Part shown: piece by piece, positions 4,055-57,513 of the stretch
Layout: every line of letters starts with the position of its first letter
Position numbering within the stretch: the first letter of the stretch is position 1
Virus record (IMG/VR): IMGVR_UViG_3300001282_000006
From: a virus
Taxonomy: Duplodnaviria > Heunggongvirae > Uroviricota > Caudoviricetes
Direction: 5' to 3' (one strand)
DNA: 64,000 nucleotides
The notes under the pieces: model-generated
The model's database searches: none
Told to the model about the DNA's origin: nothing
Seen by the model: the letters and a program-made list of their open reading frames with translations, nothing else
Translations under genes and position numbers: made by a program

Positions 4055-4798
4055 ATGAAAATTAAAAACTATAAACTATTTTTAGAGTCAAATAATTTTG
4101 ACTTTGATTTTTTAGCAAACATTGGTAAAATGAAACAAGCTATTATTAAAATAGTTCAACTTCATGAGAAAAAGTGTTATGGTGATATTAAACTATCATC
4201 TTATGAAAGATTTAAAGCTTCATTAAATGATTTAATTGATAGTGCTGTTAAAGGTGAATATACAATTACTGAAGATTACTTATCTGTAATTAATTTATTT
4301 GAAAAAGAAGTTTATGGAAAAGATTTACTTTCTTCTTATGAAGAATCTATTTTTAGTCATTTAGATGATTTGATATCTTGTTTTAATAGTTTATTAGATA
4401 ATGAGGAAAAAGACGAAGAAGATATTATGAGATTAGGAAAAGATGCTGACCATATCTTAAATAAGATGGATGAGACTTGGATTTATACTTCTGATGAATC
4501 TAATGTTAGTATTTCTGATATTGATATAAGTGATATTGATGATGCTATTGCTGGTTTAGACGATAGATTGTCAAAAGAAACAGATGACATGTGGACTTCT
4601 GAAGAAGAATTTGAAAAGGATATTGAATCATATATTGGAAAGAAAATGGATGATTTTGATTACTCGGATAAACTACAAGCTTATCAATATATTGAGAACA
4701 AAGAATGGGTGAAAAATATACTTGAAGGTGGTTCAGAAAAAGATAAAGACTTTGTTACTAACTTTCTTTCTCAAATGAAAGATATGTTTGGCATATAA
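4055..4798 (+). CDS. Hypothetical acidic protein with a CTS-like leader (MKIKNYKLFLE|S).
   Basis: 247-aa ORF rich in D/E. Confidence 0.7.
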   Translation: MKIKNYKLFLESNNFDFDFLANIGKMKQAIIKIVQLHEKKCYGDIKLSSYERFKASLNDLIDSAVKGEYTITEDYLSVINLFEKEVYGKDLLSSYEESIFSHLDDLISCFNSLLDNEEKDEEDIMRLGKDADHILNKMDETWIYTSDESNVSISDIDISDIDDAIAGLDDRLSKETDDMWTSEEEFEKDIESYIGKKMDDFDYSDKLQAYQYIENKEWVKNILEGGSEKDKDFVTNFLSQMKDMFGI

Positions 4799-4813
4799 AT
4801 TAATATATACATT

Positions 4814-5125
4814 ATGAAATACTTAAAGAAATATAACGAAAATCAAGAACAACAAGATCCTGAGTTTGCTATTGCTAAAATTAAGGGAAGATATCCTGAG
4901 GATATGGTTCAAGATATGTTAAATGATGAGATTAATCAGTGGAAGCCAGATGAAGAAGATCCAGAATTCTATTCAAGAACTGGAAACGGAGAAGCAGAAG
5001 ATGTTATCATCAATCAAATGATTGGTTGGTTTGATAAAAAGTATTATGCTTTATCTGATGAAAACTTTGAGAAAGTTAAACAATTAATACTAAAAGAGTA
5101 TGAGTTCTTAAACTTTAACTACTAA
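4814..5125 (+). CDS. Hypothetical protein (MKYLKKYNE..., weak CTS-like start).
   Basis: 103-aa ORF. TATAAATTAATATATACATT sits directly upstream of the ATG. Confidence 0.6.
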   Translation: MKYLKKYNENQEQQDPEFAIAKIKGRYPEDMVQDMLNDEINQWKPDEEDPEFYSRTGNGEAEDVIINQMIGWFDKKYYALSDENFEKVKQLILKEYEFLNFNY

Positions 5126-56463: not shown

Positions 56464-56546
56464 GATCCTGTCGCTTAGCGGCTATAGCAACTGGCTTTTA
56501 ACCAGTAGATTAATTTCAACCGTGGGTTCGAGTCCCACCAGGATCA
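56464..56546 (+). tRNA. tRNA-Lys-like paralogue (UUU anticodon as read) with a 15-nt variable region.
   Basis: GATCCTG..ACTGG-CTTTTAA-CCAGT-AGATTAATTTCAACC-GTGGG-TTCGAGT-CCCAC-CAGGATC-A. Confidence 0.45.
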
Positions 56547-56555
56547 CTAAGTAAT

Positions 56556-56638
56556 GCGTCTGTCGCTTAGTGGCTATAGCAACTGGCTTTTAACCAGTAG
56601 ATTAATTTCAACCGTGGGTTCGAGTCCCACCAGACGCA
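56556..56638 (+). tRNA. Tandem near-identical copy of the previous tRNA with a different acceptor stem (GCGTCTG/CAGACGC).
   Basis: The body is identical to 56464..56546 except for one D-loop base. All seven acceptor-stem base pairs are replaced. Confidence 0.45.
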
Positions 56639-56645
56639 CAAAATT

Positions 56646-56729
56646 GATTCCGTCGCATAGCGGCGATTGCGCCAGACTCTTAATCTGATGATGAAAAGTC
56701 CACCGTGGGTTCGAGTCCCACCGGAATCA
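56646..56729 (+). tRNA. tRNA-Lys-like paralogue (CUU anticodon as read) with an expanded variable region.
   Basis: GATTCCG..CAGA-CTCTTAA-TCTG..GATGATGAAAAGTCCACC-GTGGG-TTCGAGT-CCCAC-CGGAATC-A. Confidence 0.4.
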
Positions 56730-56738
56730 CAAAAAATG

Positions 56739-56879
56739 GAGAGAGTAGCTCAGTTGGTAGAGCACGTTATTATACTCTGATAAGTATTCTCTGATTACGG
56801 TTAACGTAATTAGTAGTGATGTTAAGAGTTACTTCGGCTGTTAACCGCGTGGTCGTAGGTTCGAGTCCTGCCTCTCTCC
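56739..56879 (+). tRNA. tRNA gene interrupted by a ~65-nt insertion (putative small intron). A possible anticodon arm CGG-CTGTTAA-CCG gives GUU/Asn.
   Basis: Canonical GAGAGAG-TA-GCTCAGTTGGTAGAGC 5' part and GTAGG-TTCGAGT-CCTGC-CTCTCTC-C 3' part, separated by extra sequence containing AGAGTTACTTCG. Confidence 0.4.
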
Positions 56880-56945
56880 CTAGTTATGAGACTGTTTAGA
56901 ATTTTATCGACTTGGCACTTTTCAAGTAACGTAATAAATTCATTT

Positions 56946-57073
56946 GGGGATGTAGCTCAGTGGTAGAGAAAACTATCTCTTTTGAAATTTTACCTCGTAA
57001 GAGTGTTGATTGAGAGAGTTACTTCGTATATTTTGAAATTATAAGGTCGTTGGTTCGAATCCAACCATCCCCA
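56946..57073 (+). tRNA. tRNA gene interrupted by a ~55-nt insertion related to the one in 56739..56879.
   Basis: GGGGATG-TA-GCTCAGTGGTAGAG...GTTGG-TTCGAAT-CCAAC-CATCCCC-A. The insert contains GAGAGTTACTTCG and a duplicated TTTTGAAATT. Confidence 0.4.
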
Positions 57074-57116
57074 CAAAAAAAGAAGAATAAAAAATTAATA
57101 TATAACAAATAAGATT

Positions 57117-57194
57117 ATGAAAACAATTATTAACACATCGTCAAAATCGTCAAGTCGCTCGTCAAAAATGAGTGAGGTTCGATCGTGTTCATAA
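57117..57194 (+). CDS. Possible 25-aa Ser-rich micro-ORF inside the tRNA cluster.
   Basis: ATG preceded by TTAATATATAAC and followed by a terminator. MKTIINTSSKSSSRSSKMSEVRSCS. Confidence 0.15.
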   Translation: MKTIINTSSKSSSRSSKMSEVRSCS

Positions 57195-57214
57195 TATTCA
57201 AATAAGATATTAAA

Positions 57215-57251
57215 GAAACCCTTCGAACATCAGTTTGAAGGGTTTTTTGTT
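57215..57251 (+). terminator. Rho-independent terminator between tRNA sub-clusters.
   Basis: aaacccttc-gaacatcagttt-gaagggttttttg. Confidence 0.7.
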
Positions 57252-57338: not shown

Positions 57339-57422
57339 GGAGAGGTAATTTAGCTGGCGCTAAAGCTAGTCTTGAAAACTAGTCGTACCTACGGGTATGG
57401 GGATCGATACCTCACCTCTCCG
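57339..57422 (+). tRNA. tRNA-Ser(UGA), class II.
   Basis: GGAGAGG..CTAGT-CTTGAAA-ACTAG, long variable arm CGTACCTACGG, TGGGG-ATCGATA-CCTCA-CCTCTCC-G. Confidence 0.65.
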
Positions 57423-57427
57423 CAACC

Positions 57428-57513
57428 GGAAGGAGTCCGAATGGACGAGGACACCGCCTTGAAAGCGGCTGGGTCGAAAGGCTTTGGGGGTTCGATTCCC
57501 TCTTCTTCCGCCA
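57428..57513 (+). tRNA. Second class-II tRNA with a UGA anticodon (Ser) and an encoded 3' CCA.
   Basis: GGAAGGA..CCGC-CTTGAAA-GCGG, long variable arm, GGGGG-TTCGATT-CCCTC-TTCTTCC-G-CCA. Confidence 0.55.

What the first reader, a model, noticed from the sequence alone, without database searches (positions are those of the whole stretch)
56739..57073. Two adjacent tRNA genes split by short insertions that share a conserved core (GAGAGTTACTTCG)
Both genes have textbook acceptor stems, D arms and T arms (GCTCAGTTGGTAGAGC…GTAGGTTCGAGTCCTGC and GCTCAGTGGTAGAG…GTTGGTTCGAATCCAAC), yet they are 141 and 128 nt long. The extra ~65 and ~55 nt lie between the D arm and the variable loop and share the block (A)GAGTTACTTCG preceded by AGTG(A/T)TG(TT)(G)A. 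The second insert is flanked by a duplicated TTTTGAAATT. The inserts are far too short for group I introns and not obviously BHB-type. Candidate explanations are a new class of mini-intron, a tiny mobile insertion that targets tRNA genes (TSD-like duplication), or inactivated tRNA pseudogenes.
Basis: seen in the sequence. Interest (0 to 1): 0.7.

Follow-up and report, generated by a model that had tools for sequence, protein, structure and literature searches.

The report
Phage tRNAs carrying a Y-RNA stem
Two tRNA genes of a huge phage each carry a 56-68 base insert that is a rearranged copy of the RNA stem normally bound by the Ro60 protein, so they look like tRNA/Y-RNA hybrids and not like genes split by a new mini-intron, a transposon or decay.

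Summary
Window 56739-56879 and 56946-57073 are tRNA genes that ARAGORN misses and Rfam's tRNA model finds. Deleting 56767-56834 (68 nt) gives a canonical tRNA-Asn(GUU). Deleting 56969-57024 (56 nt) gives a class-I tRNA with anticodon UGA.

The inserts are not chance. The same element sits just after the D arm of at least 60 distinct phage tRNA genes, including cultured crAss001. In Bacteroidota chromosomes it lies between rsr (Ro60) and rtcB.

Its two halves are the two strands of a Y-RNA stem. They include a GNYG(N)A/UUNC helix like the YrlA "GNCGAA" Ro60-site motif. The closest relatives of this phage encode Ro60 about 100-130 kb from the tRNA cluster. Next to that gene is a stand-alone Y RNA with the same two strands in swapped order.

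So the insert is a circularly permuted Ro60-type stem-loop grafted onto a complete tRNA. Best reading: a stable tRNA/Y-RNA chimera that recruits phage Ro60. Excision as an intron is not excluded. BHB, group I, ribozyme, TSD-forming transposon and pseudogene readings are rejected. It is a new variant of a known kind.

The parts
56739..56766 (+). Gene 1, 5' tRNA part: acceptor strand GAGAGAG, U8 A9, D arm GCUC-AGUUGGUA-GAGC, A26, and C27 G28 of the anticodon stem. G at 56738 can pair with C56879 (G-1:C73).
   Evidence: Rfam tRNA alignment; ARAGORN cloverleaf after deleting the insert.
56767..56834 (+). Gene 1 insert (68 nt): permuted Y-RNA stem-loop. P1 is ACUCU 56774-56778 paired with AGAGU 56825-56829. 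The Ro-site-like helix is UUCU 56787-56790 with AGUG 56815-56818. The apical hairpin is 56791-56813. The tail UUACUU, conserved in every copy retrieved, ends at 56834.
   Evidence: Sequence; fold; family covariation; same two strands as the stand-alone Y RNA at L239 2559-2613.
56835..56879 (+). Gene 1, 3' tRNA part: C29-G31, loop CUGUUAA (anticodon GUU), CCGCG, variable loop UGGUC, T arm, acceptor strand CUCUCUC and discriminator C.
   Evidence: 86-92% identical to annotated tRNA-Asn genes of many phages, with alignments starting at window 56833-56835; ARAGORN tRNA-Asn(gtt).
56946..56968 (+). Gene 2, 5' tRNA part: acceptor strand GGGGAUG, U8 A9, D stem GCUC, D loop AGUGGUA, and GAG of the D-stem 3' strand.
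   Evidence: Rfam tRNA alignment; ARAGORN after deletion.
56969..57024 (+). Gene 2 insert (56 nt): permuted Y-RNA stem-loop. P1 is CUCUUUUGA 56977-56985 paired with UUGAGAGAG 57010-57018. The Ro-site-like helix is UUAC 56990-56993 with GUUG 57005-57008. The apical hairpin is CUC-GUAA-GAG 56994-57003. The tail UUACUU ends at 57024.
   Evidence: Sequence; nhmmer with the family profile, E = 5.8e-7; covariation; orthologues change only A/G opposite U in P1.
57025..57073 (+). Gene 2, 3' tRNA part: C25 G26, anticodon stem UAUAU/UUAUA (one U-U mismatch), loop UUUGAAA (anticodon UGA), short variable loop AGGUC, T arm, acceptor strand CAUCCCC and A73.
   Evidence: Orthologues show compensatory changes in the acceptor, anticodon and T stems while keeping the loop UUGAA.

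Best explanation
Each gene encodes a complete tRNA body with one extra arm. The body has an open acceptor stem, D arm, anticodon arm and T arm. The extra arm is a 56-68 nt stem-loop that leaves the tRNA at the junction of the D stem and anticodon stem. It is a circularly permuted Y-RNA stem.

In an ordinary Y RNA, the 5' strand (…GNYG(N)A…AGAGUUACUUC) and the 3' strand (ACUCU…UUNC…) pair to form the Ro60-binding stem, and the RNA ends are at the base of that stem. Here the order is swapped. The old ends are closed by a loop, and the tRNA occupies the position of the Y-RNA effector loop. This is the topological mirror of bacterial YrlA, where the acceptor stem is closed and the Ro stem is open.

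Inferred mechanism:
1. The genes are transcribed with the tRNA cluster and trimmed like tRNAs.
2. The extra arm binds the phage's own Ro60 (Rsr) protein.
3. The tRNA body acts as the tether or decoy module, as proposed for YrlA. It would link Ro60 to tRNA-handling or RNA-repair and decay enzymes during infection.

Shown: homology of the insert to Y-RNA stems, its fold, its genomic linkage to rsr, and selection on the tRNA fold. Inferred: Ro60 binding, that the RNA stays unspliced, and the biological role.
For: 1. The element is a real family. A pattern scan found 78 viral stretches against about 20 expected by chance (my estimate). They give 71 distinct sequences, at least 60 of them tRNA genes with the element right after the D arm. 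Another 38 genome loci were found, mostly Bacteroidota.

2. In a Bacteroides MAG the element lies between rsr (TROVE domain, E = 1e-26) and rtcB (E = 9e-58). There its two halves flank permuted tRNA-like domains. Rfam's YrlA model matches one of these at 43.7 bits, E = 3e-8.

3. Linkage to rsr is strong. 50 of 76 element-positive loci contain an Rsr homologue within the few kb held. All 71 element copies in those loci are on the rsr strand, at a median distance of 361 nt. Only 20 of 153 element-negative loci contain Rsr.

4. The window's own lineage has the parts. Contigs holding orthologues of the two genes also encode a TROVE protein 100-130 kb away (contigs of L161, about 90% identical to the window, and of L122, L185, L163, L152). 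Directly upstream of that gene is a stand-alone RNA, CCAGUAGUGAAUUAGAGAGUUACUUCG-loop-ACUCUUUGAUAACUUACUCUGG. These are the two halves of gene 1's insert in swapped order.

5. Structure is supported by covariation. The variable bases next to AGAG are complementary to those next to CUCU: mean extension 2.15 bp against 1.38 ± 0.15 in 500 partner shuffles, maximum 1.83. The inner helix UUNC/GNYG covaries: one pair shows CG 14, GU 8, AU 7, UG 6, GC 4, and the covariation score is 0.294 against 0.134 ± 0.018, with 0 of 500 shuffles as high. Stand-alone Y RNAs show compensatory changes in the same P1 helix. The GNYG(N)A strand resembles the GNCGAAN0-1G motif of YrlA (Chen et al. 2014, PMC4201824).

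6. Against a decoding role. Gene 2 has a Ser anticodon on a short-variable-loop body, while class-II Ser(UGA)-like genes lie next door. Close crAss relatives keep one tRNA body but carry UUU, UGU or 9-nt loops. The distance from the conserved motif to the 3' junction varies from -2 to +9 nt.
Against: - No Ro60 gene lies within the 64 kb window. Its presence in this phage is inferred from relatives.
- No binding or expression data exist.
- The window copies read AGUGAU and GUUGAU rather than GNCGAA.
- Rfam's Y_RNA and YrlA models do not score the inserts, nor even the rsr-adjacent RNA.
- Removing the insert restores a perfect cloverleaf, especially for tRNA-Asn. No other Asn gene is seen in the window's cluster. 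That is what an intron would look like.
- An extra helix at positions 28/29 would probably block ribosome use. So if these RNAs decode, they must be spliced.
Confidence: 0.62

Rival explanations
1. A protein-dependent intron. The Y-stem insert is cut out by an unknown endonuclease, possibly guided by Ro60, and the halves are sealed by an RtcB-type ligase. This would give a functional tRNA-Asn and a tRNA(UGA), and perhaps a free Y-RNA hairpin.
For: - Exact deletion restores canonical cloverleaves.
- The anticodon stem pairs across the junction (CG|CGG with CCGCG).
- Gene 1's exons are 86-92% identical to real tRNA-Asn genes.
- In 42 family members a strict cloverleaf is recoverable by one deletion.
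- rtcB is in the bacterial operon.
Against: - No bacterial or phage endonuclease for this is known.
- The junction is not at a fixed distance from the conserved motif (-2 to +9 nt), and the insertion position ranges from 23 to 31.
- Many members give non-canonical tRNAs, with 9-nt loops or a class-I body carrying a Ser anticodon.
- In bacteria the same strands flank permuted tRNA-like domains that cannot be spliced in this way.
- No RtcB was found in the window or in the phage loci held.
Confidence: 0.17
2. A self-splicing or self-cleaving mini-ribozyme intron.
For: Strong conservation of AGAGUUACUUC next to the 3' junction.
Against: - No Rfam ribozyme or group I/II hit at E ≤ 10.
- At 56-68 nt it has only two helices.
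- The intron termini are not conserved (5' ends UUAUU, AAAAC, UACUU…).
- The same motif is conserved in stand-alone Y RNAs that interrupt nothing.
Confidence: 0.03
3. A tiny mobile DNA element (MITE-like) that targets tRNA genes and duplicates its target.
For: The direct repeat TTTTGAAATT in gene 2. Presence or absence of the two genes among relatives: L001 and L002 lack them.
Against: - The repeat is not at the insert boundaries and is lost in orthologues.
- Gene 1 has no such repeat.
- There are no terminal inverted repeats.
- The apparent duplication GATGGTAGAGCAGG in L197 is the D arm of the next permuted tRNA-like unit.
- In L001 and L002 the whole genes are absent, not just the inserts.
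Confidence: 0.03
4. tRNA pseudogenes inactivated by junk insertions.
For: ARAGORN does not call them. Gene 2 has a U-U mismatch in the anticodon stem.
Against: Orthologues at 74-97% identity keep the insert and show compensatory double changes:
- acceptor stem GGGGAUG/CAUCCCC to GGGGAGU/ACUCCCC;
- T stem GUUGG/CCAAC to GUGGG/CCCAC to AUAGG/CCUAU;
- anticodon stem UAUAU/UUAUA to UUUGA/UCAAA.
The insert itself covaries.
Confidence: 0.03
5. An archaeal-type bulge-helix-bulge intron at a non-canonical position.
For: Non-canonical positions are typical of some archaeal BHB introns. In gene 2 the 4 nt GUAG upstream of the 5' junction can pair with UUAC upstream of the 3' junction (by hand).
Against: - Gene 1's corresponding 4-mers (AGCA and UUAC) do not pair.
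- Neither gene has the flanking helices (hand check).
- No splicing endonuclease is known in Bacteroidota or their phages.
Confidence: 0.01

Closest known systems
YrlA (Y RNA-like A; Rfam RF02553), the bacterial and phage Ro60-associated tRNA mimic (Chen et al. 2014, PMC4201824)
   Same: - A stem carrying a GNCGAA-type motif is joined to a module with canonical D and T arms.
- It is encoded beside rsr, and in bacteria beside rtcB.
- The bacterial members of this family have YrlA's order: 5' strand, T arm, closed acceptor hairpin, D arm, 3' strand.
   Different: In the window the topology is circularly permuted. The acceptor stem is open with a discriminator base, the Ro-type stem is closed by a loop, and a full anticodon arm is kept. 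The genes sit in a tRNA cluster about 100 kb from rsr. Rfam's model does not reach its threshold (43.7 against 69 bits at best, in the Bacteroides locus). The stem sequence (AGAGUUACUUC, UUNC) is a different subtype.
Canonical Y RNAs (metazoan Y1-Y5; Deinococcus Yrn1)
   Same: A bulged stem formed by two distant strands, with a conserved G-N-C-G-A-A-like strand opposite U-U-N-C. A variable second module is thought to tether an effector. The stand-alone Y RNA of this phage lineage (L239 2559-2613) has exactly that layout.
   Different: In the window the stem is an internal hairpin of another RNA, not formed by the RNA's ends. In Yrn1 the Ro stem takes the acceptor position. Here it emerges at tRNA positions 24-29.
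tRNA introns (bacterial group I in the anticodon loop; archaeal/eukaryal BHB introns; tricRNA pathway with RtcB)
   Same: An intervening sequence whose removal restores a canonical tRNA. In bacteria it is linked to an RtcB ligase gene.
   Different: It is far too small for group I and has no catalytic core. There is no BHB. It sits 5' of the anticodon loop. The conserved motif is at a variable distance from the junction. The element also exists as a free-standing, non-interrupting RNA.

Membership tests
Y RNA / YrlA-type Ro60-associated RNA | Encoded next to a Ro60 (TROVE) gene, on the same strand | tested here: inconclusive
   Met for the family: 50 of 76 element-positive loci, 71 of 71 copies co-oriented, median distance 361 nt. 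Not met for the window copies: no TROVE gene in 64 kb. In relatives the gene lies 100-130 kb away on the same contig.
Y RNA / YrlA-type Ro60-associated RNA | Stem with the conserved Ro60-site strand (GNCGAAN0-1G) opposite a pyrimidine-rich strand, with a bulge or mismatch | tested here: met
   The helix U-U-N-C / G-N-Y-G has a central U×Y mismatch and covaries. Exact GGCGAAG occurs in L192 and GCCGAAU in L153. The window has AGUGAU and GUUGAU. The similarity to the published motif was judged by eye, not by a model.
Y RNA / YrlA-type Ro60-associated RNA | Second module that mimics tRNA (D and T arms) | tested here: met
   Rfam tRNA scores 42-45 bits for both genes. The tRNA-like part of YrlA matches at 43.7 bits in the Bacteroides locus.
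Y RNA / YrlA-type Ro60-associated RNA | Reaches the Rfam gathering score of RF02553 or RF00019 | tested here: not met
   The window gives only spurious YrlA hits of 13-26 bits caused by tandem tRNAs. The rsr-adjacent RNA at L239 gives no hit.
Y RNA / YrlA-type Ro60-associated RNA | Physically bound by Ro60 | not testable with these tools
   Needs EMSA or RIP with the phage TROVE protein.
BHB (splicing-endonuclease) tRNA intron | Two 3-nt bulges separated by a 4-bp helix at the two junctions, with flanking helices | tested here: not met
   Hand check on the sequence. In gene 1 the central 4-mers AGCA and UUAC do not pair. In gene 2 GUAG and UUAC pair but no flanking helices exist.
Group I / group II self-splicing intron or small self-cleaving ribozyme | Match to a catalytic-core model; conserved termini | tested here: not met
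   No such Rfam family at E ≤ 10 in 56735-57085. The inserts are 56-68 nt with variable 5' ends.
Transposable mini-element with target-site duplication | Direct repeats immediately flanking the insert, conserved across copies | tested here: not met
   The repeat lies 11 nt inside and 6 nt outside the insert. It is absent in gene 1 and in orthologues.

The most novel reading that the evidence does not exclude
The Y-RNA stem is a genuine excisable intervening sequence. Ro60 would recognise the stem in the precursor, an associated nuclease would cut at the three-way junction, and an RtcB-type ligase would seal the halves. The products would be a working tRNA plus a free Y-RNA hairpin. That would be a third, RNP-dependent route of tRNA splicing in bacteria and phages. 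It would also give the rsr-rtcB operon a natural substrate.
Probability: 0.12. Interest if true: 0.9.

Novelty: new variant of a known kind. Interest (0 to 1): 0.6.

Why it matters
1. It explains a class of phage tRNA-like genes that standard tRNA finders miss. They are unannotated even in the cultured model phage crAss001: the gap between gp96 (TROVE) and gp95 holds two of them.

2. It extends Ro60/Y-RNA systems to crAss-like and huge Bacteroidota phages, with a stem subtype that Rfam does not detect.

3. It shows that the tRNA-mimic idea behind YrlA exists in a second, circularly permuted topology. In this form the acceptor end is free, so the RNA could in principle be CCA-tailed or even charged while carrying Ro60.

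4. This makes the long-open question of what the tRNA module of Y RNAs is for directly testable in crAss001 and Bacteroides intestinalis.

Tried and rejected
- ARAGORN on the window misses both genes.
- RNAalifold on the MAFFT alignment of 48 inserts predicted no pairs, because the 5' strand is misaligned by ±1 column. I replaced it with an anchor-based complementarity test and a column test of the well-aligned inner helix.
- Brute-force deletion plus ARAGORN was too permissive to fix junctions, giving dozens of solutions per gene. A strict cloverleaf script replaced it.
- The first successful scan returned mostly chance matches. Only about 15 of 120 were inside tRNAs.
- About 8 genome hits were unrelated tRNA-Phe terminator hairpins of the form AGAGTTACTTC…GTAACTCT.
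- I considered that GAGUUAC pairs with tRNA positions 7-13 (GUAGCUC). I dropped this because the motif is equally conserved in stand-alone Y RNAs with no tRNA and in a His-type tRNA with a different D arm (L098).
- I briefly read the bacterial arrays as a guide-RNA scaffold with spacers, and GATGGTAGAGCAGG in L197 as a target-site duplication. Both were rejected once the units were seen to be permuted tRNA-like domains.
- GenBank phages show no BLAST match to the insert itself.
- Six literature searches found no description of a Y-RNA stem inside a full tRNA. Two reviews on bacterial Y RNAs were not available.
- No covariance model was built.

Full report
**1. The observation**

The window carries a phage tRNA cluster at 55.9-57.7 kb. 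ARAGORN calls nine tRNAs but nothing at 56739-56879 or 56946-57073. Rfam's tRNA model finds both, at 42.4 and 45.3 bits, each with one large insertion.

Read against the cloverleaf, gene 1 is:
- GAGAGAG-UA-GCUC-AGUUGGUA-GAGC-A-CG
- [68 nt insert]
- CGG-CUGUUAA-CCGCG-UGGUC-GUAGG-UUCGAGU-CCUGC-CUCUCUC-C

Gene 2 is:
- GGGGAUG-UA-GCUC-AGUGGUA-GAG
- [56 nt insert]
- C-G-UAUAU-UUUGAAA-UUAUA-AGGUC-GUUGG-UUCGAAU-CCAAC-CAUCCCC-A

Deleting 56767-56834 and 56969-57024 makes ARAGORN call tRNA-Asn(gtt), 74 nt, and a 73-nt 'tRNA-Ser(tga)' with a short variable loop. The 3' part of gene 1 is 86-92% identical to annotated tRNA-Asn genes of many phages, with alignments starting at window 56833-56835.

Both inserts end in AGUG-N-UG…AGAGUUACUU, and the next base is C in both. 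The 12-mer AGAGTTACTTCG occurs exactly twice in the window.

The TTTTGAAATT repeat exists but lies 11 nt inside and 6 nt beyond the insert. Orthologues do not keep it.

**2. The phage**

The nearest database relatives are uncultured huge phages LR745206 (634 kb) and LR756502 (642 kb), at 72-79% identity. Their syntenic tRNA clusters lack both genes.

IMG/VR contigs of 134-476 kb share the cluster and gene 2. These are the contigs of L161 (about 90% identical to the window), L122, L163, L185 and L152. L161 has both genes.

**3. The insert is a widespread family**

A scan for AGTGNTG-N(2-10)-AGAGTTACTT gave mostly chance hits, but about 15 lay inside tRNA genes.

A scan for TGGTAGAG-N(40-70)-AGAGTTACTTC gave 78 viral stretches, against about 20 expected by my estimate. 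They yield 71 distinct sequences. Most are tRNA genes with the element directly after the D arm. They come from crAss-size contigs, huge phages and others.

The same pattern with a D-arm prefix found 38 loci in bacterial genomes. They are mainly Bacteroidota: Flavobacterium, Sphingobacterium, Bacteroides, Parabacteroides, Dysgonomonas and Tannerella. About eight of these are unrelated terminator hairpins.

**4. What the element is**

In a Bacteroides MAG (L197) four copies lie in a row. The gene order is rsr (Pfam TROVE, 1e-26), a 155-aa ORF, the RNA array, then rtcB (Pfam RtcB, 9e-58).

The tRNA pieces there are circularly permuted. Each unit runs: 3' half, T arm, acceptor stem closed by 1-3 nt, D arm. 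Each unit is preceded by GUGYCGUARNNAAGAGUUACUUC and followed by CUCUUUUCGYUUGUURCCUUG. Rfam's YrlA model matches one such tRNA-like unit at 43.7 bits, E = 3e-8, model positions 24-84.

So in bacteria the two halves of 'the insert' are the 5' and 3' strands of a YrlA-type Y RNA stem. The first unit of each operon starts with the GUGYCG… strand only, downstream of a Bacteroidetes-type TAnnTTTG promoter box.

Across all loci held, the linkage to rsr is as follows:

| Loci | With Rsr homologue in held flank |
|---|---|
| Element-positive (nhmmer) | 50 of 76 |
| Element-negative | 20 of 153 |

All 71 element copies in the Rsr-positive loci are on the rsr strand, at a median distance of 361 nt.

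Cultured crAss001 has two such tRNA-plus-stem genes in the unannotated gap after gp96 (TROVE).

**5. The window's own lineage**

No TROVE or RtcB gene lies in the 64 kb window. This held for tblastn, for a family HMM, and for TAG/TGA-recoded translations.

LR745206 encodes a TROVE protein about 100 kb from its tRNA cluster. Its close homologues (80-84% identity) are on the very contigs that carry the orthologues of genes 1 and 2, 100-130 kb from them.

Immediately upstream of that rsr gene lies a stand-alone RNA (L239 2559-2613): CCAGUAGUGAAUUAGAGAGUUACUUCG-GUUCAGAAAAAAAC-ACUCUUUGAUAACUUACUCUGG.
- Its 5' strand matches the 3' half of gene 1's insert (UAGUAGUGAUGUUAAGAGUUACUU).
- Its 3' strand matches the 5' half (ACUCUGAUAAGUAUUCUCUG).

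It folds as a Y-RNA-like bulged stem. Its relatives show compensatory changes in the stem, for example UUGAU/AUUAG, UUAUC/GAUAG and UUAGU/AUUAA. The insert is therefore a circular permutation of this phage's own Y-RNA stem.

**6. Structure of the insert**

P1 pairs (A)CUCU plus variable bases with variable bases plus AGAG(U). Examples:
- L128: ACUCUGUU/AACAGAGU
- L124: ACUUUAAUC/GAUUAGAGU
- L003: CUUUUCUA/UAGAAGAG
- window gene 2: CUCUUUUGA/UUGAGAGAG

The variable extension is longer than with shuffled partners: 2.15 bp against 1.38 ± 0.15, maximum 1.83 of 500.

Above an asymmetric internal loop lies a 4-position helix U-U-N-C / G-N-Y-G:

| Position | Pairs observed |
|---|---|
| 1 | U·G 43, U-A 4, A-U 1 |
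| 2 | conserved U×Y mismatch |
| 3 | CG 14, GU 8, AU 7, UG 6, GC 4 |
| 4 | CG 36, UA 4, UG 2 |

The covariation score is 0.294 against 0.134 ± 0.018, with 0 of 500 shuffles as high.

The G-N-Y-G-(N)-A-A strand resembles the GNCGAAN0-1G motif that Chen et al. 2014 mark as the putative Ro60 site of YrlA. Exact GGCGAAG and GCCGAAU occur in some members. A variable apical hairpin closes the element.

The tail UUACUUC is identical in all copies retrieved (the search pattern required it). Close variants such as AGAGAUACUUC occur in stand-alone Y RNAs. It is therefore part of the Y RNA, not a splice signal tied to the tRNA.

**7. Spliced or not?**

For splicing:
- A single deletion restores perfect cloverleaves.
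- The stems pair across the junction.
- Gene 1 would be the only tRNA-Asn in the cluster.

Against splicing:
- In 42 strict cases, the distance from the motif to the 3' junction ranges from -2 to +9 nt and the insertion site from position 23 to 31.
- Gene 2 combines a Ser anticodon with a class-I body, although class-II Ser(UGA)-like genes are adjacent.
- crAss relatives keep one body but swap UUU, UGU or 9-nt loops.
- The bacterial forms are permuted and closed at the acceptor end.
- No endonuclease is known.

The most frequent site, 28/29, is shared by phage genes and the Bacteroides Y RNA (GG|…|GCA-CUCUUAA-UGCCC). This points to a conserved three-way-junction architecture rather than random intron positions.

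MFE folds show the insert as a separate fifth arm.

I favour a stable chimera (about 0.6) over an intron (about 0.17).

**8. Selection**

Orthologues keep the insert and show compensatory changes in the acceptor, anticodon and T stems. In P1 they change only A/G opposite U. These are not pseudogenes.

**9. Comparison with what is known**

By linkage to rsr, the motif, the covarying stem and the tRNA module, the family works like YrlA and other Y RNAs. The window copies fail two membership criteria:
- adjacency to rsr;
- the Rfam score.

They also differ in topology: open acceptor stem, closed Ro-type stem, retained anticodon arm.

BHB, group I/II, ribozyme and TSD criteria are not met.

Six literature searches found no description of this arrangement. 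Chen et al. explicitly discarded hits overlapping tandem tRNAs. Iyer et al. 2021 only note that some jumbo phages have a TROVE protein with a tRNA-like partner.

**Verdict**

The element is a new topological variant of a known kind of RNA, a Ro60-associated tRNA mimic.

Noticed in passing
window 57118-57250: Mini-ORF MKTIINTSSKSSSRSSKMSEVRSCS* followed by a strong terminator hairpin (57209-57250). It lies just upstream of tRNA-Arg(ACG) and three tRNA-Ser genes. The peptide and terminator are conserved in LR745206 (L001 3246-3380) and LR756502 (L002 3018-3150). Rfam gives weak His_leader and trpB-motif hits. It looks like a Ser/Arg-rich leader-peptide attenuator in front of tRNA genes.
   Followed up: partly
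window 56464-56547, 56556-56639, 56646-56730: Three tRNA-Lys genes (UUU, UUU, CUU) have variable regions about 9 nt longer than usual, giving 84-85 nt tRNAs. That is unusual for Lys. The feature is conserved in the LR745206 and LR756502 clusters (82-89 nt there).
   Followed up: no
window 57339-57421 and 57427-57510: Two class-II tRNA-like genes with loop CUUGAAA (anticodon UGA, Ser) are missed by ARAGORN. Only Rfam's tRNA-Sec model picks them up (46.7 and 38.7 bits). Counting gene 2, the UGA anticodon therefore occurs three times within 600 bp.
   Followed up: no
window 56738 and 56879: Gene 1 has a G at -1 that can pair with discriminator C73, giving an 8-bp acceptor stem as in tRNA-His. This sits on a GUU (Asn) anticodon. 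The feature is conserved in orthologues L003, L153 and L177 even though their acceptor sequence differs.
   Followed up: partly
L230 (crAss001, MH675552) 4579-4722 and 4831-4973: Two unannotated tRNA-plus-Y-stem genes lie in the 900-bp gap between gp96 (TROVE) and gp95 of the cultured phage crAss001. The first has a 9-nt 'anticodon' loop, AUGUUGAAA. The second has an aberrant D arm.
   Followed up: partly
L197 minus strand, locus coordinates about 1440-1535; also L193, L199, L205, L207, L212, L224: A third module is conserved in the Bacteroidota rsr-rtcB RNA arrays: …UUAGGGGAGGAAUAGCGAAGUCGUAAAAUCGGCAAGGUUAUCCGGUUCGAUUCCGGCAAG…. It has a T arm but no recognisable tRNA 5' half. No Rfam family matched it at E ≤ 1.
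   Followed up: no
L198, L200, L204, L215, L216, L218, L221 (Bacteroidales genomes): The terminator hairpin after tRNA-Phe(GAA) in many Bacteroidales reads AGAGUUACUUC-N-(A/G)GUAACUCU-U7. It uses the same 11-mer as the Y-RNA motif as its 5' arm. This may be coincidence or shared ancestry; it is unexplained.
   Followed up: no
L003, L153, L177 compared with window 56767-56834: The same tRNA-Asn, interrupted at the same position (28/29), carries a different stem variant in other phages. That variant resembles gene 2's insert, with a CCUC-GNRA-GAG apical hairpin. The window's gene 1 insert instead matches the lineage's rsr-adjacent Y RNA. This suggests stem replacement or repeated grafting.
   Followed up: no
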